IMG/VR virus record: IMGVR_UViG_3300044974_000308
Span: 1 to 59,540 of that record
Source of the DNA: a virus
Lineage: Duplodnaviria; Caudoviricetes
Reading direction: 5' to 3' (one strand)
Length of the DNA stretch: 59,540 bases
Shown: piece by piece, positions 12,490 to 30,471 of the stretch
Layout: the number at the start of each line of letters is the position of its first letter
How positions within the stretch are numbered: position 1 is the stretch's first letter
Notes under the pieces: model-generated
The model's database searches: none
Seen by the model: the letters and a program-made list of their open reading frames with translations, nothing else
Told to the model about the DNA's origin: nothing
Translations under genes and position numbers: made by a program

Positions 12490-15400
12490 TCATCGCGAAT
12501 ATTTTGATACTACACCAAGCGCGTCTTTAATGACAGAGCCGCCATCGGCATATGCCTTTGGTTCTTCACCGCCAGCGGCCAAGGATTCTTCCATCATTTC
12601 CTTCGGGACATTGATGGAGACCGGGACGCCTCTCACGCCAGACGGCAATGCGCGACGACCAAGCCAAGTGCTCGCCGAATAGAAATCAGTCGGCCATTTC
12701 TTTGATCCATACTTTTCGTAATTGTTAAAGTCATAGACGTCGTTCACAACAGCGTTGCCGGCTTTGTCCAACTTGTAATTGGCGCGGCCAATGACGACCG
12801 GGAACGGGCCGCCTTTGTAGTCTTCATATTGAAGATTGTTTCTTCCTTCAGCCTGACTTTGCACAATAGCGCGGGCCAAGCTTTGCAGATCTTCTTTGCT
12901 AAAGTCTTTTTCTGTGAACGGCTCTTGGCGTCGGTCAAGCACGGCTTCTTTGTAGATCCTTGCCGGCGTGCCTTCATCAAAATAAGACGCAGCGCGAGCG
13001 GCTTTATCAAGCGCCCATGTGACAGCCTTTTCCATATTAGGGCTGTCCATCTTTGGATTTACGCTCGAATATTCCTTGCCGCCGACCGTAAAGGACGGGA
13101 AGACATCGCCCTCATCGCTTACCTTCCCGCCCTGCTCGAATGCCGGCAATCCCTTGAGGATAGCCGCGCGCAGCTTTGGCGTCATCTCAAGAGAATGAAG
13201 ATGGTGAATTCGATCCTCTCCATCGTCAGTTTCTGTCCCAAGATTAATCATGTGATCAAACAACTTCATTTTTATTGATGGGTCTAATTGCGCGACAAGT
13301 TTATTCATGCGCTCTGGCAGCTTCCTATCGTAATAATTGCGCATGCCTTTATTCTCTATTTTTAGATCGCCGCCACGCAATAAATGAACCTGCTTATTCC
13401 CCACGGTTTTTATCGGCTGAGAAAGCAATTTATCCGCAAGATCCTTGCCTATAAAACCGGGCAGAGCCTCTGCATGAACCTTTTCTTCAATATCTTCCAG
13501 CCCCTCAAGACCTTCAGCTAAAAGTTCTTTTGTATCTGGAGACCAGCGAATTGATTCAAATTTTTTATCCAACCCGTAACGATCTGACTGATCTTTCCCG
13601 GCCGTAAAAAGGATTTTTTTATAATCGCCTTTCGCCGCCTCTTGAAGAATGCGTTTCAACGCAAGATCAGTCCATCCTTCTGTGCTTCCGATATGCGGGC
13701 CTTCAGGGACTTCTTCTCCATCACGCTTGTTTTGGCCCCAATCGCTCTGAACTTCTTCGACATGAAGATACGGCTTTTGGAAAGCGAACCCTCTGTCAGA
13801 CATGCGAATATGGGCGAGGACATTTGGCGTTCCCTCCCAATGGCTTGACTGATAATTATTGGCGCGAAAATCAGATTTTACTTTTTTTAGCTGTTCTTCG
13901 GCATCATTTTTTTCTCGCCTGATATCTGAAACACGGCGATATGCCGCCAACGTATCTGGATGACCCGGCTCATTTTCCTCACTAATTCTCTTCCAATCAG
14001 CCATTGCATCTGCGCTTTGGCGAGAAAGCGTATTAAACCGTTCTTTAATCTTATCAAGATCATCAGAACTCTTACTTGGCAAATGCAAAAGCAATTCGCG
14101 ATAATTACCTACTGTGAAATCATCGCGAGGATCACTTAATTGATACTCTCCATACTTTGCATCATTAGAGCCTTTTGAACGGTATTGCGCCATATAAGGG
14201 CGAGCCTGCGCATTTAGAGCGTCAGACTCCTCAAGTTTGCCCTGCATTTTTAGCGCATAGGCTTTGTCCATAAGTTCTTTGCCAACAGCATACGGATCTC
14301 TGAGAACTTTCTCCTGAACCTGTGGCAGGTTCGTCTGTAGGTGCCGCGCAACTTCCTGCGGATCCACGCTCTTCTGCCCAGCAAAAGCGTCTCTAACGCC
14401 TGACCAATCAAGTTCCTCCGCTTTGACATTCGGAGATCCTCTCAGCTTGTTCAGGATCTGATCAATCGGCGCCTTCTGAGGTATTTTAGCTGCCGCCTCA
14501 GAAGCGGCGCTGTAAAAACCCATTGGCGTCGTTTCGCGGTCGTCGTCGACGGCGCCGCCTTCAGCATAGCCCATGCCGCCGAAGCCGCCGCCGAAGCCGC
14601 CAAGACCGCCAAAGAACGACCCAAGGCCCATGCCGAACATCGGCCCCCAGACGTCATAGAAGCCGCCGGTCGGATAGTTCGAAGGCTGGCCCATCGGCAT
14701 TGGCTGCTGCGGCGAAGGCGATGGATAGCCGCCGCCAAAGCCTTGCACATAATTCGGCAAGCGCGGGATAGACCCTTGCTGTGCAGCCGGCAGAACCGGC
14801 GGCCGCAGAAGACCAGTCGGCGTCTGCTGGGCTCGGGGATAGGGAGAGGCGTCTGGATAGCCCGGCACGCTTATCTCATCAGGCTGGCCCTGAACATTTA
14901 TTTCATTCTGGCCCTGCGGAACGTTGCTGGTCGTAAAGCGCGACCGCGAGCCTTTGAAGCCCGGCGTGAAGCCCTTGAAGTTTCCGCCCATGCCACCGCC
15001 GTAATACTTGCCGGGGCGATGATCGATTACCGGAACCGACGAGACGCCAAGTTCTTCAGCAGCCGTTGCACGATGACGACCATCTTCTGTTCCATTACGA
15101 TAAAGTTTAAGCGGGCCAAGAGGATCGCCAGATACAATATCACGTTTGAAATTATCAATAACCTGACGATCACCTTTTCCGATCTTGAGAGGCCGCGCTT
15201 CGTCAAGAAACTTCTCCGGCTTCATTTTCTTAATCTTGGCGGCTTTCGCGTCTTCTGTCATCGCAAGCGGATAATCGACGCGGCCGCCTTCCTTGCGCAT
15301 ATGGATGTTTGGATACTTCCACTGCCCGGCAAAGCTAGGCGTATTGCTGCGCGACACAATCGGCGCGGCGGCGAACGCCCATTCAATCAGACGGCGCCCG

Positions 15401-16431
15401 AATTGCTCAGGCTCTTCCTTGTCAAGCGCTGGGCCGGGGATTGAGCCGCCGTAAGCGCGCTGCATGCGGCCCTCAACCTCATGCGGAGCATGCATGAAAA
15501 AAGCTTTGATTCCGACTTCATTTTTGACGTCACCGCCATCAGCATATCGCCGCACTGTCTTTATGTGCTTAGGATCGAACACGACATAATTATGCGTCCC
15601 GTATTTATTCCCGCGAGTTCCTGAATCATTATATTTTATTCCGCGAATACCTGCAGACGCTAAAACATTACTTGCTTTTGCTTGAGCCTCACCTTTAGGA
15701 ACACCGCGCTTGAACATATCAGCTGAAAATTCGCTTTCTGAGAGACGCCGATAAAATTTATCCGCCATCATCCTTGATGCTTTTTCAGTCCACCCTAATG
15801 GCCTAAATAACCCAACGGCAGACGGCCCAAAATTGTTTTCAAAGTTCACAAGCCCGGCTTTGTGAAGGGCGTCGATAACTTCTGGATGCTGATCCTCAAG
15901 CGGCGCATCCCAATCCAATAAATGTTCTGCCCCGGCATTTATGCGAACTTCATACATATGGCCCGGGTTTTTTTGTATAACCCCGCCTTCTGGGAACAAA
16001 AGTTTTTTCAAGTCTTCGGCAACGCCGTCATATCTTGGATCTTTTGGGCTATAAGAATCCAATAACTTCTTTGCCGTCTCGATCCCTTCTTTCAAGCCGC
16101 CAGATTGGATTGCTTTTGAAATATTTACATTGCTAATATCGCGATATGGATCAAATGATTTTCCATCTATGGCATATGTTCCTTGAGATAAATTATCACG
16201 ATACTGTTTTGCCACATCTTCATTTTCAGCAAAATACAACCCGTGGCCGAACGCCTGCGCGCCTTCTCCTGTGCCGATAAATGCAGGATCAAATTCATCA
16301 AACTTATGAGGTGAGCCGTGATAGGCAGTCACGCCCATCGCCGGCCGGATATCTTCGTGCGTTTCAACGCCAGTTGCCGGCTCGACGCCCGTCGCGGGCA
16401 CTATGTCGTCATGCGTATCGACGGGCATCAT
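12490..16431 (-). CDS. Large polyvalent virion protein (ART-like + ParB-like + two uncharacterised domains)
   Basis: AYHGSPH.FD.F...GTGEG.Q.FG.GLYFAE...NYVVFD (ART-like); DGRHR..AA..LG...VPV (ParB/Srx-like); FYS...VEEVQSDW domain; separated by xxxGG motifs. Confidence 0.75.
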   Translation of the reverse strand: MMPVDTHDDIVPATGVEPATGVETHEDIRPAMGVTAYHGSPHKFDEFDPAFIGTGEGAQAFGHGLYFAENEDVAKQYRDNLSQGTYAIDGKSFDPYRDISNVNISKAIQSGGLKEGIETAKKLLDSYSPKDPRYDGVAEDLKKLLFPEGGVIQKNPGHMYEVRINAGAEHLLDWDAPLEDQHPEVIDALHKAGLVNFENNFGPSAVGLFRPLGWTEKASRMMADKFYRRLSESEFSADMFKRGVPKGEAQAKASNVLASAGIRGIKYNDSGTRGNKYGTHNYVVFDPKHIKTVRRYADGGDVKNEVGIKAFFMHAPHEVEGRMQRAYGGSIPGPALDKEEPEQFGRRLIEWAFAAAPIVSRSNTPSFAGQWKYPNIHMRKEGGRVDYPLAMTEDAKAAKIKKMKPEKFLDEARPLKIGKGDRQVIDNFKRDIVSGDPLGPLKLYRNGTEDGRHRATAAEELGVSSVPVIDHRPGKYYGGGMGGNFKGFTPGFKGSRSRFTTSNVPQGQNEINVQGQPDEISVPGYPDASPYPRAQQTPTGLLRPPVLPAAQQGSIPRLPNYVQGFGGGYPSPSPQQPMPMGQPSNYPTGGFYDVWGPMFGMGLGSFFGGLGGFGGGFGGMGYAEGGAVDDDRETTPMGFYSAASEAAAKIPQKAPIDQILNKLRGSPNVKAEELDWSGVRDAFAGQKSVDPQEVARHLQTNLPQVQEKVLRDPYAVGKELMDKAYALKMQGKLEESDALNAQARPYMAQYRSKGSNDAKYGEYQLSDPRDDFTVGNYRELLLHLPSKSSDDLDKIKERFNTLSRQSADAMADWKRISEENEPGHPDTLAAYRRVSDIRREKNDAEEQLKKVKSDFRANNYQSSHWEGTPNVLAHIRMSDRGFAFQKPYLHVEEVQSDWGQNKRDGEEVPEGPHIGSTEGWTDLALKRILQEAAKGDYKKILFTAGKDQSDRYGLDKKFESIRWSPDTKELLAEGLEGLEDIEEKVHAEALPGFIGKDLADKLLSQPIKTVGNKQVHLLRGGDLKIENKGMRNYYDRKLPERMNKLVAQLDPSIKMKLFDHMINLGTETDDGEDRIHHLHSLEMTPKLRAAILKGLPAFEQGGKVSDEGDVFPSFTVGGKEYSSVNPKMDSPNMEKAVTWALDKAARAASYFDEGTPARIYKEAVLDRRQEPFTEKDFSKEDLQSLARAIVQSQAEGRNNLQYEDYKGGPFPVVIGRANYKLDKAGNAVVNDVYDFNNYEKYGSKKWPTDFYSASTWLGRRALPSGVRGVPVSINVPKEMMEESLAAGGEEPKAYADGGSVIKDALGVVSKYSR

Positions 16432-25900: not shown

Positions 25901-26185
25901 TCAATGTTTTATCTTCTGATTCCAATTGACGTTACCATCTTGCTCTGCGTCGTTCAATGTAAATATTATCGCGTTGACCAAGATCTGCAGAGATGTAATT
26001 GCGCTTTCTTTCGACACCATGTTTTCCGACAGAACGCACGACGTAACGGCGGCGAGCGCCTGCAGCATTTCGACTGGCGTTTCTGCCGTATCGTAAAAGA
26101 CGTCGAGCGTCTCTTCAGCCATTTCGGCTACACGGGCTTTTTGCTCTTCAGGTATCTCATTGTCTGGATCATGGATTTCGATCAT
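25901..26185 (-). CDS. Hypothetical protein
   Basis: ATGA overlap with terS stop. Confidence 0.55.
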   Translation of the reverse strand: MIEIHDPDNEIPEEQKARVAEMAEETLDVFYDTAETPVEMLQALAAVTSCVLSENMVSKESAITSLQILVNAIIFTLNDAEQDGNVNWNQKIKH

Positions 26186-26640
26186 TGCGCGCTTTCTTTG
26201 GCGGCCATCAGGACGCTGCGTAACGCTTGGCGTTGCTCAGGCGTCAGGGCGCGCGAATCAATCGTCTTCGTCTCGACCTTGACGGCGCCCCCATCCTTGC
26301 CGGTGATCTCAGTCTGCGTGCGTTCGGTGTAATCGTCGCGGAAGCGCGACGCCACGCTTTTCAGCCACAGCTGCGCGTTAAAGTCGCGCGAAGCAAGGTT
26401 TTGCTGCGCTTTATCTTCCCACCAATTCTGCGAATGAACGCGGGCGCGTGCGAGAGCAGTGCGAAAATCGTCATATTCTTCCGCCCACCGGAAGATCGAC
26501 GCTTTATCGACATCGAAGAACGAAGCCATTTGCGCGATGCTTTTGCCCTCTTTGCCCAGCTGGATTATTTGCTCACAATATTCCGGCTTATATTTTGTCG
26601 GGCGCCCAACAGGCCGCTTCGCGGGCTTTTCTTCACTCAT
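26182..26640 (-). CDS. terS: Terminase small subunit
   Basis: GRPTKY..EYCE.I..LG.EG.S....A HTH; WWE; EITGKDGG. Confidence 0.8.
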   Translation of the reverse strand: MSEEKPAKRPVGRPTKYKPEYCEQIIQLGKEGKSIAQMASFFDVDKASIFRWAEEYDDFRTALARARVHSQNWWEDKAQQNLASRDFNAQLWLKSVASRFRDDYTERTQTEITGKDGGAVKVETKTIDSRALTPEQRQALRSVLMAAKESAQ

Positions 26641-26695: not shown

Positions 26696-26989
26696 TTAGA
26701 ACTCTTCGTCGGCAGTGGCCCCTGACGCTTTCAGGGCGGCTTTTCCAAGCGGCAGGTCTGCGAGCATTCCCAGCGCTTCCATGTAGGTCGCAAGGAGCGC
26801 CTTCTCTTCGGCGACCTTGGCGGCGTCCTTTTTACGCATGGCGATGATCTGCTTCAAGATCTTGGTGTCGTAACCATCTGATTTTGCTTCAGAATATACG
26901 CTTTTGATATCTTCAGCGAGGGCGGCTTTCTCTTCTTCAAGCTTCTCTATGCGCTGGACAATAGTTTCCAAGTGATTGTTTTTTGCCAT
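26696..26989 (-). CDS. gapR: GapR-like (DUF2312) nucleoid-associated protein
   Basis: L..IVQRIE.LEEEK..LA.DIK.VY.EAKS.GYD.K.L.Q.I..RK. Confidence 0.9.
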   Translation of the reverse strand: MAKNNHLETIVQRIEKLEEEKAALAEDIKSVYSEAKSDGYDTKILKQIIAMRKKDAAKVAEEKALLATYMEALGMLADLPLGKAALKASGATADEEF

Positions 26990-27188: not shown

Positions 27189-27218
27189 TTGACAGGCGGA
27201 AGAAACTTCCGGTATAAG
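27189..27218 (+). promoter_or_regulatory. Sigma70-like early promoter P1 with palindromic spacer operator
   Basis: TTGACA-N18-TATAAG; spacer contains CGGAAGAAACTTCCG. Confidence 0.75.
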
Positions 27219-27252
27219 AATTTCATCGTAACCGATGTTGATGGATATTGAA

Positions 27253-27408
27253 ATGAACGAGCAGCCCTACTTCGAAAAGATCGTTTCTGGCACGGTCGGC
27301 TACTGCAACAAGATTGTCGCTGAATACCGCGCTCGCGGATATGTCGTCGCCAGCCAGAAGCAATGGTCTGACGGCAAATACACCTTCGTCCTTCGCAAAG
27401 ACAAGTAA
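27253..27408 (+). CDS. Early hypothetical protein (51 aa)
   Basis: Manual ORF MNEQPYFEKIVSGTVGYC...; after P1; ATGGATATTGAAATG leader. Confidence 0.6.
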   Translation: MNEQPYFEKIVSGTVGYCNKIVAEYRARGYVVASQKQWSDGKYTFVLRKDK

Positions 27409-27419
27409 TGGAGATTGAT

Positions 27420-27758
27420 ATGTCTAACGTGAAAAATGCTCCCACCGCTCGCTACTTCACTGAATTTGGCTATTCGCAATGCTACCCGTGGGTGCTCATT
27501 GATATGAGCCCCAGCGGCAAGACAGCGACGCTGGCGCGCGTGGCGACAAAGTCGGATCCTGACTGGACGCCAAAGATGCTTGTCGGCGGCTTCTGCGGCC
27601 ATTGCATCAATCAGTCTGAGCAGACTTGGCTCTATGATGGCGTCGAGTCGCGCACGCAAAAGATCCGCTTAAACAAGTATGGCGAGTGGAAGCACAAAGG
27701 CGTCCGTTTCGAAGAAGAGAAAAAAGGGCCGTATTACTTCTACGATTACAACTTCTAG
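27420..27758 (+). CDS. Early hypothetical protein
   Basis: GGAGATTGAT-ATG leader; ends YYFYDYNF. Confidence 0.7.
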   Translation: MSNVKNAPTARYFTEFGYSQCYPWVLIDMSPSGKTATLARVATKSDPDWTPKMLVGGFCGHCINQSEQTWLYDGVESRTQKIRLNKYGEWKHKGVRFEEEKKGPYYFYDYNF

Positions 27759-27782
27759 CAAGAGGGGGCGAAAGCCCCCGAC

Positions 27783-27811
27783 TTGACATCGGAAGAAACT
27801 TCCGCTATAAT
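27783..27811 (+). promoter_or_regulatory. Sigma70 consensus early promoter P2 with the same operator
   Basis: TTGACA-N17-TATAAT; spacer tcggaagaaacttccgc; preceded by GGGGGC-GAAA-GCCCCC hairpin. Confidence 0.85.
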
Positions 27812-27836
27812 GATTGTGTTAAGTATGGAGATCGAT

Positions 27837-28115
27837 ATGAAAAAATACACCGGGTTTGTTCATGCTGGCGGCGTCTGCTCTTGGTATTGCGCAGAAACGC
27901 AGCTGGAGGCGGCGACGAAAGCTGTGCAACAGTTTAAGCGCGACTTCAAGCATATCTTCAAAATCAAGAAGGGCGTCGAATACAAAGTATCTGTGTTTGA
28001 TACAACCGACATAGAAAGTTGGGTTCTTGATGATTATGGATATCTTCATGAACTTGGAGATCAGAACGACAAGAAAATTGTCAAGGATTTCGAGATCGTG
28101 AAGGTTTATTCCTAA
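27837..28115 (+). CDS. Early hypothetical protein
   Basis: GGAGATCGAT-ATG leader. Confidence 0.65.
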   Translation: MKKYTGFVHAGGVCSWYCAETQLEAATKAVQQFKRDFKHIFKIKKGVEYKVSVFDTTDIESWVLDDYGYLHELGDQNDKKIVKDFEIVKVYS

Positions 28116-28156
28116 CGGATGGGGCTTCGGCCCCATCTAATCTTACGGAGATCGAT

Positions 28157-28438
28157 ATGACCATCTACTCAGTGAAAGTTAGATACGAAACCATCAGCCC
28201 GATGTATCAGGAAGAGATCTTCCACTTTGACAATGAAGTCGAAGCAAGCACGTTTTTCCACAAGGCTATGGCGCAAGGTTGGAATGTCGGCTCTCCTCGC
28301 GTCGTCATCCATGAAGTTTTTAACTGTGATTCGGCGATGGGCTGGGTTCTGGATGAAATAGAAGCAACCAGAAATTCTGTTCTGCAAGATCCTAGCCGCT
28401 ATCCTCAACAAGTTCGTGCGAAAGCACGACAGGCATAG
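28157..28438 (+). CDS. Early hypothetical protein
   Basis: GGAGATCGAT-ATG leader; stop codon overlaps hammerhead 1. Confidence 0.65.
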   Translation: MTIYSVKVRYETISPMYQEEIFHFDNEVEASTFFHKAMAQGWNVGSPRVVIHEVFNCDSAMGWVLDEIEATRNSVLQDPSRYPQQVRAKARQA

Positions 28439-28491
28439 ATCGAAACGGGGCTACGGCCCCGTCTGTCCGTAACGCGGGCACTGATGAGATC
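28438..28491 (+). ncRNA. Type II hammerhead ribozyme 1 (predicted cleavage after C28463)
   Basis: GAUC-GAAA-CGGGGC(UACG)GCCCCG-UC^-UGUCCG(UAACG)CGGGCA-CUGAUGA-GAUC: full conserved core and three stems. Confidence 0.9.
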
Positions 28492-28505
28492 CGATGGAGA
28501 TTGAT

Positions 28506-28658
28506 ATGATCAAGGTTCGCAAAAATTCGAAGACCAAAATCTGGAACATCTATGCGTTCGACGGTGAGAACTTAGGCGCATACAGCTTCCACTTGCAGGA
28601 GGTGAAGGCATACTTCCCCGGCTGCACGATCAAGGGCCAGAACGTCTATCTGCCTTGA
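28506..28658 (+). CDS. 50-aa ORF bracketed by two hammerheads
   Basis: Manual ORF MIKVRKNSKTKIWNIYAFDGENLGAYSFHLQEVKAYFPGCTIKGQNVYLP; GGAGATTGAT-ATG leader. Confidence 0.7.
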   Translation: MIKVRKNSKTKIWNIYAFDGENLGAYSFHLQEVKAYFPGCTIKGQNVYLP

Positions 28659-28710
28659 AGTCGAAACGGGCTTCGGCCCGTCTGTCGGTTATGCCGGCAC
28701 TGATGAGACT
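28659..28710 (+). ncRNA. Type II hammerhead ribozyme 2 (predicted cleavage after C28682)
   Basis: AGUC-GAAA-CGGGC(UUCG)GCCCG-UC^-UGUCGG(UUAUG)CCGGCA-CUGAUGA-GACU; stems covary relative to copy 1. Confidence 0.9.
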
Positions 28711-28724
28711 ATATGGAGATTGAC

Positions 28725-28949
28725 ATGTCGCGCATGAAAGACTTCGCGTTTGAACTGGAAGCTTATACGACGAGCGCCATACAGCATACGGCTCTGATCT
28801 TGGCCGGGACGCATCCCGACAACCAAGAGGCGACGAAGATGCTGGACGAGGCTTTGAAGCTTCTGCAGCAGCGCATGACAGACGTCGAGTATAAGGACTT
28901 CATGTTCGACGTCGACCGCATCATGGATAAATACCAGCATCGATGGTAA
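28725..28949 (+). CDS. Early hypothetical protein
   Basis: GGAGATTGAC-ATG leader directly after hammerhead 2. Confidence 0.65.
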   Translation: MSRMKDFAFELEAYTTSAIQHTALILAGTHPDNQEATKMLDEALKLLQQRMTDVEYKDFMFDVDRIMDKYQHRW

Positions 28950-28956
28950 ACTTTCC

Positions 28957-28982
28957 AGACCCGCTTCGGCGGGTCTCTTTTT
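28957..28982 (+). terminator. Intrinsic terminator
   Basis: agacccgc-ttcg-gcgggtct followed by cttttt. Confidence 0.7.
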
Positions 28983-28993
28983 AGGAGGAAGCG

Positions 28994-29242
28994 ATGCGAG
29001 TGATTGAAACCCATATGAGCGACGGCGATGTGATTCGCCTCATTGAGCATGACCTGACGCAGGCCGAACTGGAAGCCAAGCAGGCAGAGACGCGGGACGA
29101 TGGCGTCATCGTCAGTTTTATGGTTCTGGACTATACTGCGAAGCCCAAGGCGCCAGCTGCCGCCAAGGAGACGAAGACGACGGCGTCGACGGTCATTGAG
29201 GCTGTCGCCAAGAAGATCCGCAAGACCTCTACCAAAAAGTAA
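28994..29242 (+). CDS. Hypothetical protein with K/A/T-rich tail
   Basis: RBS AGGAGG. Confidence 0.6.
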   Translation: MRVIETHMSDGDVIRLIEHDLTQAELEAKQAETRDDGVIVSFMVLDYTAKPKAPAAAKETKTTASTVIEAVAKKIRKTSTKK

Positions 29243-29290
29243 CCATAAAACGACCTCTGAAAATATTTTCGGAATTTTCTTCCAAAGCGC

Positions 29291-29319
29291 TTGACTGAGG
29301 AAGAAAGTTCCGATACCTT
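29291..29319 (+). promoter_or_regulatory. Early promoter P3 with variant operator
   Basis: TTGACT-N17-TACCTT; spacer gaggaagaaagttccga. Confidence 0.65.
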
Positions 29320-29354
29320 ATCTTTATTGAAATTGATAACCGATGGAGACTGAT

Positions 29355-29636
29355 ATGACCGACCTCGCTTCCCTCGCCGATCTCTATGCTTACGCCAAGG
29401 CGGAAGCCGACGCTGCCAAGAAGCGCGTTGACGACCTGCGTGAGCAGATTCTGGCGGCTGGCGTTGACCAGATCAACGGCGACCGCTTTCTGGTTTCGGT
29501 GAACACCACGGTTCGCGCCAGCATCGACACGACGCTTGTTCGCGAACTGTTGTCCAAGGAAGATCTGGCGCTCGTGACCAAAGAGACGCCGGTCGCCACC
29601 ATCCGCGTAAAGGCTGCGGTTCGTGTCGCGGCCTAA
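29355..29636 (+). CDS. Conserved early phage protein
   Basis: GGAGACTGAT-ATG leader; strongly biased codon usage; own promoter and terminator. Confidence 0.7.
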   Translation: MTDLASLADLYAYAKAEADAAKKRVDDLREQILAAGVDQINGDRFLVSVNTTVRASIDTTLVRELLSKEDLALVTKETPVATIRVKAAVRVAA

Positions 29637-29640
29637 TAAC

Positions 29641-29673
29641 AAGAGGGGCCGCGCAAGCGGCCCTTTTCTTTTT
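29641..29673 (+). terminator. Intrinsic terminator
   Basis: gggccgc-gcaa-gcggccc followed by ttttctttt. Confidence 0.8.
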
Positions 29674-29682
29674 GGAGGCGTA

Positions 29683-29784
29683 ATGACGTTCATGCGTTTT
29701 CTTGTGTCGCTCGTGTCGTTCCTTGGATCCATCGTGATCTTTGGATTGACCGTGTTCTTCGCTGTCTTGATGTTTATGAGGTGA
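29683..29784 (+). CDS. 33-aa hydrophobic membrane peptide
   Basis: Manual ORF MTFMRFLVSLVSFLGSIVIFGLTVFFAVLMFMR; RBS GGAGG. Confidence 0.5.
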   Translation: MTFMRFLVSLVSFLGSIVIFGLTVFFAVLMFMR

Positions 29785-29787
29785 ACT

Positions 29788-30015
29788 ATGTCGCTTGATA
29801 TCTATGACCACAATGTCGAAGGCCATCCCTACATCCTTGCTTCTAACGAGCCGTGCTACGAAGTGAACCCTGTTCTCTGGCGCCTGTTCTGCGTCTTCAC
29901 AGGGCGCGACTTCATGAACGCCAGCACGCTTTGGAGCGAGCAGCATGTGATCAATTCTCTTGTCTCTAAAGGAGTCGAATACCGTGACGCCAAATCAGCT
30001 TCGCATCGTTCTTGA
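29788..30015 (+). CDS. Hypothetical protein
   Basis: RBS GAGG. Confidence 0.5.
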   Translation: MSLDIYDHNVEGHPYILASNEPCYEVNPVLWRLFCVFTGRDFMNASTLWSEQHVINSLVSKGVEYRDAKSASHRS

Positions 30016-30220
30016 TAAACTAGGGATAACGAACACAGATGTCGCGACCATTGCAGGAGTCACACCGCGTCAGGTTAATTCTTGGCTACGAGGCGTTAAT
30101 GGCATACCTCGCTCTGTTGTTCTTATTCTTGCTGCCCTTGATAATAAACAGCTGTCAATTGATTGGCTGGTTCAAGCAGTCGAGATGGAAGTAATACAAG
30201 AAGCCAGACAAGGAGAGTAG
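29984..30220 (+). CDS. XRE/Cro-like HTH regulator (GTG start)
   Basis: TPNQLR..L..LG.T..DVA...GVT.RQV..W..G...IP; RBS AAGGAG. Confidence 0.75.
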   Translation: MTPNQLRIVLDKLGITNTDVATIAGVTPRQVNSWLRGVNGIPRSVVLILAALDNKQLSIDWLVQAVEMEVIQEARQGE

Positions 30221-30222
30221 AG

Positions 30223-30471
30223 ATGGCAACATCAGAGAAGATAGGATGGACTGTTGTAGATCGAAAAGGAAGATTCCTTGGATCAGACTCAGTAACAGAT
30301 TCTGGAAGAATTTTGTTTCTCTATTCCCCTGCAATTTTTCGGACAAAAAAAGACGCTGTAGAATACGCCCGCGCTAGAATGAACATATGGATAGAAAACG
30401 GACGCGATGAAGAAGATTGCAAAAAAGACGCCTTAATTGTTAAGGCTTTTGCAATTGTAGAAACAATATAA
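30223..30471 (+). CDS. Hypothetical protein
   Basis: RBS AAGGAG; last gene of the early unit. Confidence 0.5.
   Translation: MATSEKIGWTVVDRKGRFLGSDSVTDSGRILFLYSPAIFRTKKDAVEYARARMNIWIENGRDEEDCKKDALIVKAFAIVETI

What the first reader, a model, noticed from the sequence alone, without database searches (positions are those of the whole stretch)
28438..28710. Two tandem type II hammerhead ribozymes bracket a 50-codon ORF in the early operon
Seen: two intergenic elements each carry the full hammerhead core (GAAA, GUC cleavage triplet, CUGAUGA), a UNCG-capped stem III, a 6-bp stem I and an open 4-bp stem II. The stems differ between copies by compensatory changes (GAUC/GAUC vs AGUC/GACU; UGUCCG/CGGGCA vs UGUCGG/CCGGCA). 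Each begins at a stop codon and ends just before the next RBS. Established: hammerhead cleavage leaves 5'-OH and 2',3'-cyclic phosphate ends, which RtcB can ligate. Inference: the transcript cuts itself after 28463 and 28682, releasing a 219-nt monocistron with RBS and ORF. Circularisation would rebuild a hybrid hammerhead with a 3-bp stem II. This could be ribozyme-based operon processing or a protein-coding circular RNA from a DNA phage.
Basis: partly seen in the sequence, partly recalled or inferred. Interest (0 to 1): 0.92.

Follow-up and report, generated by a model that had tools for sequence, protein, structure and literature searches.

The report
Two hammerhead ribozymes flanking a phage gene
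Two genuine self-cleaving hammerhead RNA motifs sit at the gene junctions on either side of a small phage gene, most likely to cut a multi-gene transcript into single-gene messages, an arrangement already described for prophages in 2011.

Summary
Window 28438-28491 and 28659-28710 (+) each carry a complete type II hammerhead. Each has a canonical core, capped stems I and III, and an open 4-bp stem II. Predicted cuts after 28463 and 28682 would release 219 nt. They are the only two such motifs in this 59.5-kb phage genome; 300 shuffles gave a mean of 0.007. Both score below Rfam's cut-off (31.6 and 29.4 against 37 bits).

Selection on the fold is clear. In 17 hammerheads flanking homologues of the cargo gene (61-100% protein identity), the core is invariant. 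In those 17, 99.6% of stem cells pair and 9 of 16 pairs show double compensatory changes.

Across 13 contexts of the cargo gene, the hammerhead is absent where the scan calls a promoter-like site or terminator (3 of 4 upstream cases, both downstream). That fits intercistronic processing and not an obligate circle. Nothing supports circular RNA: no rod-like fold, no phage ligase, no directional stem II compatibility. No RNA data were available.

Clustered hammerheads flanking single prophage genes, with both the processing and circle ideas, were published by Perreault et al. 2011. This is a new member of a known kind, of moderate interest.

The parts
27783..27811 (+). Promoter-like site (TTGACA, 17 nt, TATAAT) with the inverted repeat GGAAGAAACTTCC in its spacer. 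Probable start of the transcription unit that holds both hammerheads.
   Evidence: 12 of 12 consensus matches; sequence.
27837..28115 (+). First gene of the unit (92 aa, no known family), preceded by the ribosome-binding box ATGGAGATCGATATG.
28118..28137 (+). UUCG-capped G+C-rich hairpin at the junction between the 92-aa and 93-aa genes. It has no hammerhead core, so this junction has no ribozyme.
   Evidence: Sequence. Not found by R1 or by the descriptor script.
28157..28438 (+). Upstream gene (93 aa, no known family). Its TAG stop overlaps the first base of hammerhead 1.
28438..28491 (+). Hammerhead 1, type II. Stem II 28438-41 with 28488-91; GAAA 28442-45; stem III 28445-62 (UACG loop); cut after C 28463; stem I 28464-80; CUGAUGA 28481-87.
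   Evidence: 31.6 bits; R1 65.7 bits.
28494..28508 (+). Ribosome-binding box ATGGAGATTGATATG. GGAG is at 28496-99 and the start codon of the cargo gene at 28506.
   Evidence: 8 matches in the window against 0.04 expected by chance.
28506..28658 (+). Cargo gene, 50 codons plus stop, no known family. It is really coding: 48 of 50 third positions vary across 11 homologues, against 22 of 50 second positions.
28659..28710 (+). Hammerhead 2, type II. Stem II 28659-62 with 28707-10; GAAA 28663-66; stem III 28666-81 (UUCG loop); cut after C 28682; stem I 28683-99; CUGAUGA 28700-06.
   Evidence: 29.4 bits; R1 73.7 bits.
28464..28682 (+). Predicted 219-nt product of double cleavage. It begins with hairpin I at nucleotide 1 (5'-OH) and ends with hairpin III plus one nucleotide (2',3'-cyclic phosphate).
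   Evidence: fold. The end chemistry is established hammerhead chemistry, not tested here.
28725..28949 (+). Downstream gene (74 aa, no known family) behind the ribosome-binding box at 28713-28727.
28957..28976 (+). Intrinsic-terminator-like hairpin followed by CTTTTT. Probable end of the transcription unit.

Best explanation
The two elements are functional type II hammerhead ribozymes that act as intercistronic processing sites.

Proposed mechanism:
1. A transcript starts at the consensus promoter at 27783 and ends at the terminator at 28957-28976.
2. It carries four small genes.
3. As each hammerhead is transcribed it folds locally (about 54 nt) and cuts itself, after C28463 and after C28682.
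4. This separates the 93-aa, 50-aa and 74-aa cistrons.

In the type II topology stems I and III are both capped. So every 5' product ends in hairpin III with a one-nucleotide overhang and a 2',3'-cyclic phosphate. Every 3' product begins at its first nucleotide with hairpin I and a 5'-OH, followed about 32 nt later by the GGAG ribosome-binding site.

I infer that this gives each cistron defined ends that are poor substrates for nucleases. It would also insulate each cistron's translation and decay from its neighbours.

Shown here: the motif, its selection, and its junction-specific distribution. Inferred: cleavage in vivo. Inferred from general knowledge of bacterial mRNA decay: the stabilising or insulating consequence.
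For: Motif:
- Complete canonical core and three helices in both copies.
- Far beyond chance (mean 0.0067 hits in 300 shuffles, none with two hits).

Selection. Loci were chosen by homology to the cargo protein, not by RNA motif.
- In 17 hammerheads flanking the homologues, all core positions are invariant.
- 99.6% of 272 stem cells pair.
- 9 of 16 pairs carry changes on both sides; 0 of 500 shuffles reach that.
- With the 3' partners slid by 1-3 columns, 26-48% of cells pair.
- Over the same loci the coding DNA differs from the window at 23-55 of 150 nt.

Junction layout. Of 191 type II hammerheads in other phage contigs:
- 155 begin within -15 to +8 nt of the end of an ORF of at least 35 codons. 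The commonest case is that the stop's last base is the first base of stem II.
- 163 are followed within 70 nt (median 23) by a Shine-Dalgarno sequence and a start codon.
- The window's two elements fit this layout.

Natural experiment over 13 distinct contexts of the cargo gene:
- The downstream hammerhead is present in 11. The 2 exceptions have an intrinsic terminator right after the stop.
- The upstream hammerhead is present in 7.
- In 4 of the 6 exceptions the gene is not preceded by a neighbouring gene. The scan calls a promoter-like site in 3 of them (L135 weakly, 9 of 12). It calls none in L144, where I read the window's 27189-type element by eye.
- In the other 2 exceptions the gene is fused to a neighbour through the shared ribosome-binding box.
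- One context with its own promoter-like site and terminator has no hammerhead at all.

Precedent:
- Perreault et al. [quoted passage not shown] The Agrobacterium set also cleaves in E. coli.
- Three type II hammerheads near phage-like genes of Desulfovibrio vulgaris were shown to self-cleave in total RNA (PMC8782182, abstract and passages).

Fold: the product has terminal hairpins at both ends.
Against: - No RNA evidence for this phage. None of the three listed RNA runs is shown to hold the stretch.
- Neither element reaches Rfam's gathering score.
- Both lack the loop I / 3'-tail pseudoknot of at least 4 bp that most type II hammerheads use for fast cleavage at low Mg2+. The best complementarity is 2 and 3 pairs, against at least 4 pairs in 63 of 66 long-loop hammerheads. 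Cleavage could therefore be slow or conditional.
- Other junctions of the same region have no ribozyme: a plain hairpin at 28118-28137, and a direct overlap at 27405-27422. Processing is therefore not a general requirement.
- Whether cleavage stabilises or destabilises the products was not tested.
- The rows of the 17-sequence alignment were located with a covariance model fitted to this structure, so decayed copies would not appear as rows. They would be counted as absences in the 13-context tally.
Confidence: 0.72

Rival explanations
1. Circular mRNA. After both cuts, the 219-nt fragment's 5'-OH and 2',3'-cyclic-phosphate ends are joined. The join is made either by a host RtcB-type ligase or by the reverse hammerhead reaction on a hybrid ribozyme. 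The product would be a covalently closed, translatable RNA encoding the 50-aa protein.
For: - The end chemistry is right for RtcB (established knowledge).
- The hybrid would regain a full core, with stem I from HH1 and stem III from HH2, and a 3-pair stem II.
- Small hammerhead-gene-hammerhead units are common: 22 of 82 adjacent spacings are 300 nt or less.
- Perreault et al. 2011 raised the same possibility.
Against: - Cargo homologues occur with one hammerhead (7 of 13 contexts) or none (1 of 13), so the gene does not need a circle.
- The fragment's fold is unremarkable (z -1.04) and does not bring the ends together.
- The hybrid stem II (3 pairs including G.U) is weaker than either cognate stem (4 pairs).
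- Across 82 adjacent pairs the circle-forming hybrid is as compatible (66) as the reverse hybrid that no circle needs (65), so there is no directional selection.
- No RtcB (PF01139) or RNA_ligase (PF09414) gene in the phage.
- Perreault et al. state that they could not detect circular or spliced products ('data not shown').
Confidence: 0.07
2. Conditional or destabilising cleavage. The hammerheads are slow, regulated switches whose cutting lowers expression of a flanking cistron. Regulation could come from Mg2+, or from ribosomes terminating on the overlapping stop codon and unfolding stem II. This would set the relative dosage of the small proteins, not stabilise monocistrons.
For: - No pseudoknot stabiliser.
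- The stop codon overlaps or abuts stem II in the window. In other phages, 86 of the 155 hammerheads with an upstream ORF have the stop ending 0 or +1 nt relative to stem II. A terminating ribosome must therefore melt the ribozyme (inference).
- Perreault et al. suggest that slower phage variants may be regulated.
Against: - Both products keep tight terminal hairpins. That is the opposite of what a decay-triggering cut would be expected to leave.
- The tight stop-to-ribozyme spacing may simply reflect phage genome compaction.
Confidence: 0.16
3. Catalytically inert structured spacers. The elements would be hairpin-rich intergenic sequences that serve as nuclease barriers, RNase III sites or recombination linkers, with the hammerhead core a relic.
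For: - Another junction of the same unit uses a plain UUCG hairpin (28118-28137).
- Mosaic breakpoints lie at or near these junctions. In L143 the cargo protein is 67% identical, yet the first bases of the next gene are identical to the window's.
- The unit carrying the hammerheads encodes 99-100% identical proteins in L003-L005, while the neighbouring 112-aa gene is 52-54% identical.
Against: - The single-stranded core (CUGAUGA, GAAA, U-C at the cleavage site) has no pairing role, yet it is invariant in 17 of 17 relatives while stems and loops change freely.
- The same holds in the 34-row set, although those rows had been picked with a pattern that fixes the core.
Confidence: 0.05

Closest known systems
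Clustered hammerhead ribozymes flanking single genes or short gene blocks in prophages (Perreault et al. 2011, PLoS Comput Biol, PMC3088659; passages read)
   Same: - Type II hammerheads in phage DNA, several per transcript, bracketing individual genes of varying identity.
- The authors proposed processing of long phage transcripts into single-gene mRNAs, and also named circular or spliced products as an alternative.
- Three such arrays cleaved in vitro, and one also in E. coli.
   Different: - This is an uncultured 59.5-kb phage with direct terminal repeats, and a two-ribozyme unit with the smallest spacing I saw (219 nt).
- These copies lack the loop I / 3'-tail pseudoknot that the paper describes for the majority of type II hammerheads.
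- I could not see the paper's supplementary figures and dataset, so I cannot say whether this short-loop form or larger arrays are already catalogued there.
Rfam RF02276 Hammerhead_II
   Same: Full-length alignment to the 66-position model, with the same core and helices.
   Different: - Scores of 31.6 and 29.4 bits are below the gathering score of 37.
- Loop I is 3-5 nt where the consensus has about 10, and the 3' tail does not match.
- In nine related loci, only 3 of 29 RF02276 matches at E<=1 reach 37 bits.
Type II hammerheads of Desulfovibrio vulgaris shown active by cyPhyRNA-seq (PMC8782182; abstract and passages)
   Same: Type II hammerheads next to hypothetical and phage-like genes. Both cleavage fragments were captured from total RNA.
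   Different: Those are three separate loci, not a pair bracketing one gene. No such experiment exists for this phage.
Retrozymes and viroid-like circular RNAs with tandem hammerheads (PMC4918200 and PMC7229834 seen as search listing and abstract only; PMC7761336 passages)
   Same: Two hammerheads a few hundred nucleotides apart would release a unit-length RNA with ligatable ends.
   Different: - Those use type III or type I ribozymes, non-coding or rod-like RNAs, and eukaryotic hosts with tRNA ligase, and their circles have been demonstrated.
- Here the ribozymes are type II, the cargo is a coding gene with its own ribosome-binding site, there is no rod-like fold, and there is no evidence of a circle.
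RNase III processing of phage T7 early polycistronic mRNA at intercistronic hairpins, and synthetic ribozyme insulators such as RiboJ (both recalled from general knowledge; no paper read here)
   Same: A polycistronic phage or engineered transcript is cut between cistrons. This leaves hairpin-ended, independently translated messages.
   Different: T7 relies on a host protein enzyme, and RiboJ is man-made. Here the RNA would cut itself and leave 5'-OH and cyclic-phosphate ends.

Membership tests
Hammerhead ribozyme, type II (RF02276) | Conserved core: C3 U4 G5 A6 N7 G8 A9, G12 A13 A14, the A15.1-U16.1 pair, H17 (not G) at the cleavage site, and the G10.1-C11.1 pair. | tested here: met
   All positions are canonical in both copies (sequence; alignment to the model; descriptor script).
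Hammerhead ribozyme, type II (RF02276) | Three helices around the core, with stems I and III closed by loops and stem II open. | tested here: met
   The minimum-free-energy folds give exactly this junction. Stem lengths I/II/III are 7/4/7 and 7/4/6 pairs.
Hammerhead ribozyme, type II (RF02276) | Score at or above the family's curated gathering threshold (37 bits). | tested here: not met
   31.6 and 29.4 bits. The shortfall comes from the short loop I and the unmatched 3' tail. Close relatives mostly fall short too: 3 of 29 reach the threshold.
Hammerhead ribozyme, type II (RF02276) | Helices supported by covariation in homologous sequences, with an invariant core. | tested here: met
   17 hammerheads flanking cargo homologues: 99.6% of cells paired, 9 of 16 pairs with double changes, 0 of 500 shuffles as high, and an invariant core. 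Caveat: the rows were located with model R1.
Hammerhead ribozyme, type II (RF02276) | Tertiary contact holding stems I and II parallel. In most type II examples this is a pseudoknot of at least 4 bp between loop I and the 3' tail (Perreault 2011). | tested here: not met
   The best loop-tail complementarity is 2 pairs (HH1) and 3 pairs (HH2), against at least 4 in 63 of 66 long-loop hammerheads. A different contact is possible but untested: the U.G-closed triloop has a central A in 17 of 17 cargo-linked copies.
Hammerhead ribozyme, type II (RF02276) | Site-specific Mg2+-dependent self-cleavage giving 5'-OH and 2',3'-cyclic phosphate ends. | not testable with these tools
   None of the three listed RNA runs is shown to hold the stretch, and nothing was laid on it.
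Ribozyme-derived circular RNA (retrozyme or viroid-like) | Covalently closed RNA, shown by back-junction reads and exonuclease resistance. | not testable with these tools
   No RNA data.
Ribozyme-derived circular RNA (retrozyme or viroid-like) | Extensive self-complementarity (a rod or branched fold) that brings the two ends together. | tested here: not met
   The 219-nt fragment folds at -67.6 kcal/mol, z -1.04. 36 of 200 shuffles fold at least as well, and the ends lie in separate hairpins.
Ribozyme-derived circular RNA (retrozyme or viroid-like) | The unit is always bounded by two ribozymes. | tested here: not met
   Of 13 contexts of the cargo gene, 5 have both hammerheads, 7 have one and 1 has none.

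The most novel reading that the evidence does not exclude
The doubly cleaved 219-nt message is ligated in the host cell, by RtcB or by hammerhead reversal, into a covalently closed, ribosome-translatable circular mRNA for the 50-aa protein. That would make phage hammerhead-gene-hammerhead units a natural source of protein-coding circular RNAs in bacteria.
Probability: 0.06. Interest if true: 0.85.

Novelty: new member of a known kind. Interest (0 to 1): 0.36.

Why it matters
It adds a clean, well-controlled example to an old open question: what the thousands of phage hammerheads are for.

- **Function.** The same small gene is seen with a hammerhead at most junctions with a neighbouring gene. 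It lacks one where the scan calls a promoter-like site or a terminator. I did not find this natural experiment in print. It argues for intercistronic processing over circle formation.
- **Topology.** It suggests a reason why type II dominates in phage operons. Type II is the only topology in which both cleavage products keep a closed hairpin at the new end.
- **Annotation.** This short-loop form scores below Rfam's threshold, so routine annotation will miss it.
- **Scale.** Arrays of up to 11 such ribozymes in one operon exist in public viral contigs.

None of this changes the known picture in kind.

Tried and rejected
- **Default Rfam scan** of the window at gathering thresholds: 0 matches. 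The elements appear only with E-value reporting.
- **Cultured-phage collection**, blastn with 27400-29700: no match.
- **tRNA scan**: none.
- **Relatives through the 93-aa gene**: only three near-identical contigs. Their alignment is 99% identical, and the few differences in HH1 lie in the tip of stem III. That is too little divergence to test anything.
- **Relative through the 112-aa gene** (L126, 67% identity): it shares only that gene at E<=1e-3 and has no R1 hit, so it was uninformative.
- **Expression.** No RNA holder was listed. The three metatranscriptome runs offered held next to none of the words, and nothing was laid on 27700-29100. This says nothing either way.
- **Cargo protein.** No Pfam or PHROG family. 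The Atlas gave only hits at 0.80-0.81, which is chance level.
- **Host.** Genome contigs carrying the short-loop form span many phyla (49 stretches). None is related to this phage beyond one weak protein match. The GapR-like protein at 26696-26989 (E 9e-30) suggests an alphaproteobacterial host, from my recall of where that family occurs.
- **Rejected: the plain hairpin at 28118-28137 as a decayed hammerhead.** It has no GAAA or CUGAUGA, and neither model finds it.
- **Rejected: endless translation of a circle.** 219 is divisible by three, but the ORF ends in TGA.
- **Covariation in the 34-row alignment** is not independent evidence. I had selected its rows for pairing, and the scan pattern fixed the core.
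Full report
**What the window is.** The window is a complete viral record of 59,540 bp with direct terminal repeats. It encodes a tailed-phage set: an SU10-like portal, a primase-polymerase/helicase and an SLT-domain protein. Most genes lie on the minus strand. The finding lies in a plus-strand block of small genes at about 27190-30470. Each gene there is headed by the box ATGGAGAYYGAYATG, which has 8 matches in the window against 0.04 expected, 6 of them in this block. A 12-of-12 consensus sigma-70 promoter at 27783-27811 and a terminator-like hairpin at 28957-28976 bracket a unit of four genes of 92, 93, 50 and 74 aa. None of these genes has a Pfam or PHROG family.

**The observation.** Both elements are exactly as described.
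- HH1 spans 28438-28491 and HH2 spans 28659-28710.
- Each has the full hammerhead core, a UNCG-capped stem III, a stem I of six pairs plus a terminal U.G, and an open four-pair stem II.
- The copies differ by compensatory changes in stems I and II.
- The stop codon of the upstream gene overlaps (HH1) or abuts (HH2) stem II. GGAG follows five nucleotides after each element.
- The predicted cuts after 28463 and 28682 release 219 nt.
- The minimum-free-energy fold of each element alone is the three-way junction.
- Rfam's Hammerhead_II model aligns end to end with both, at 31.6 and 29.4 bits. These are the two best hits of the whole window against all 4227 families (E 0.017 and 0.062), but both are below the gathering score of 37. 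So the default scan returns nothing.
- A descriptor script requiring core plus three stems finds these two and nothing else on either strand.
- In 300 dinucleotide-preserving shuffles it found 2 hits in all, and never two in one shuffle.

**Is the fold under selection?** Near-identical contigs were uninformative. The 50-aa cargo protein has homologues at 65-92% identity in the protein collection. An alignment of them retrieved 18 loci from viral and metagenome contigs, with 61-100% identity. These loci were chosen by protein homology only.

I then searched them with covariance model R1. R1 was built from 34 short-loop hammerheads, and it gave 32 hits. Seventeen distinct hammerheads flanking the cargo homologues were aligned.
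- Every single-stranded core position is invariant.
- 99.6% of 272 stem cells form standard pairs.
- 9 of 16 pairs have changes on both sides; 0 of 500 shuffles reach that.
- Sliding the 3' partners by 1-3 columns drops pairing to 26-48%.
- Caveat: the rows were found with a model fitted to this structure.

Over the same loci the coding DNA between the ribozymes differs from the window at 23 to 55 of 150 positions. It shows a strong third-position bias: 48 of 50 third positions vary, against 22 of 50 second positions. So the ORF is a real gene and the comparison spans real divergence.

**What the ribozymes follow.** Collapsing duplicates, the window and the 18 loci give 13 distinct contexts of the cargo gene.
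- A downstream hammerhead is present in 11 of 13. The two exceptions (L136, L142) have a terminator hairpin and U-run directly after the stop codon.
- An upstream hammerhead is present in 7 of 13.
- In two of the six exceptions (L129, L143), the cargo gene's ribosome-binding box directly follows the stop of a homologue of the window's 57-aa gene.
- In the other four (L135, L141, L142, L144) no neighbouring gene precedes it. The scan finds promoter-like sites in three: L141 11 of 12, L142 10 of 12, L135 9 of 12.
- It finds none in L144. There I read the same TTGAC...GGAAGAAACTTCC...TATAAG element as at window 27189.
- L142, with its own promoter-like site and terminator, has no hammerhead at all.

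So the hammerheads are found at junctions with a neighbouring gene, although two such junctions lack one. They do not follow the cargo gene.

- Of the 138 matches outside the window's own contigs, 118 had all three stems, although the pattern did not ask for pairing.
- R1 found 190 hits in the first 100 sources, two of them the window's, and 34 in the next 22.
- Arrays are common. By the descriptor, 26 of 109 loci have two or more on one strand. By R1, L028 has 11 in 8.5 kb, L053 has 9, L052 has 8, and L096 and L047 have 7 each.
- Of 191 descriptor hammerheads outside the window, 155 begin within -15 to +8 nt of the end of an ORF of at least 35 codons. 86 of those 155 have the stop ending 0 or +1 nt relative to stem II.
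- 163 of the 191 are followed within 70 nt (median 23) by a Shine-Dalgarno sequence and a start codon, and 135 show both features.
- Among 82 adjacent spacings the median is 415 nt and 22 are 300 nt or less. The window's 219 nt is shorter than all but one outlier of 68 nt.

**Two forms of the ribozyme.** One form has a long loop I that pairs with the 3' tail: at least 4 pairs in 63 of 66 cases. The other is a short form with a 7-pair stem I and a small loop. The window's copies are of the short form, with 2 and 3 possible pairs.
- In the 17 cargo-linked copies the loop is a U.G-closed triloop with an invariant central A.
- Across all 54 triloops the central base is A in 32.
- The short form also occurs in bacterial genomes of many phyla (49 stretches).
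- It mostly scores under Rfam's threshold: 3 of 29 matches in nine loci reach 37 bits.

**Mechanism.** I conclude that these are self-cleaving intercistronic processing sites. One point follows from hammerhead topology (established knowledge) and is borne out by the fold. Type II is the only permutation in which both cleavage products keep a closed hairpin at the new end.
- The upstream message ends in hairpin III with a one-nucleotide overhang and a cyclic phosphate.
- The downstream message begins at its first nucleotide with hairpin I and a 5'-OH.
- The stop codon stays on the upstream product, about 25 nt before its new end, so termination is normal.

That such ends protect against 3' exonucleases, polyadenylation and 5'-end-dependent endonucleases is my inference from general knowledge of bacterial mRNA decay. 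It was not tested here. Cleavage itself is also inferred. Precedent comes from other loci (PMC3088659; PMC8782182).

**The circular RNA idea.** It is chemically possible, but nothing I could compute favours it.
- The cargo gene works with two, one or no hammerheads.
- The fragment is not rod-like.
- The hybrid stem II is weaker than the cognate stems.
- Hybrid compatibility across 82 neighbouring pairs is the same in the direction a circle needs (66) as in the direction it does not (65).
- The phage has no RtcB or RNA ligase gene.
- Perreault et al. looked for circular or spliced products and report finding none.
- I could not test it directly. No RNA run is shown to hold the phage.

**Comparison with what is known.** Perreault et al. 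2011 state that multiple hammerheads often flank individual genes or short gene blocks in prophages. [quoted passage not shown] A 2019 review repeats the processing idea and calls the purpose undefined (PMC6765202, passages). My six literature searches found nothing newer on phage hammerhead arrays. The library lacks most subscription journals, and I could not open supplements. The finding is therefore a new member of a known kind. The junction-following pattern, the topology rationale and the sub-threshold short form are modest additions.

**Verdict.** Interest is moderate to low.

Noticed in passing
window 27189-27225, 27783-27811, 29293-29325 (+): Three promoter-like elements share TTGAC(A/T), the inverted repeat GGAAGAAA(C/G)TTCC in the spacer, and a TATAAG / TATAAT / GATACC -10 region. 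This looks like one operator-controlled promoter family heading successive small-gene units. The same element precedes the cargo homologue in L144.
   Followed up: partly
window 27408, 27825, 28145, 28494, 28713, 29343 (+); also 25891 and 37276 (-): A 15-nt translation-initiation box, ATGGAGAYYGAYATG, heads almost every small gene of the block (8 matches against 0.04 expected by chance). In L129 and L143 the cargo gene is joined to a different upstream gene exactly at this box. The box may therefore double as a recombination joint.
   Followed up: partly
L003-L005 against window 27235-30471: Mosaicism. The proteins of the hammerhead-bearing unit and of the genes after it are 99-100% identical in three other contigs. 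The adjacent 112-aa gene is only 52-54% identical, and the small-terminase-like gene 42-92%.
   Followed up: partly
L028 (11 hits in 8.5 kb), L053 (9), L052 (8), L096 and L047 (7 each): Some phage contigs have a type II hammerhead at nearly every junction of a long run of small genes. I did not see arrays of this size mentioned in the passages I read.
   Followed up: partly
Loop I of the short-form hammerheads, e.g. window 28470-28474 and 28689-28693: The stem I tip is a U.G 'pair' that almost never becomes Watson-Crick: U.G in 28 of 34 rows and in 16 of 17 rows. It closes a triloop whose central base is A in all 17 cargo-linked copies. This may be a tertiary contact that replaces the usual pseudoknot.
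   Followed up: partly
window 26696-26989 (-): A GapR-like DNA-binding protein (PF10073, E 9e-30) lies next to a small-terminase-like HTH protein at 26182-26640 (-). From recall, GapR is typical of Alphaproteobacteria and their phages, which hints at the host.
   Followed up: no
window 12490-16431 (-): A 1313-aa protein carries an N-terminal ART-PolyVal ADP-ribosyltransferase domain (E 4e-8), as found in polyvalent proteins of phages and conjugative elements.
   Followed up: no
window 27762-27777 and 28118-28137 (+): GNRA- and UUCG-capped G+C-rich hairpins without a U-run sit at two other junctions of the same gene block. Their stems resemble hammerhead stem III, but they have no catalytic core.
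   Followed up: partly
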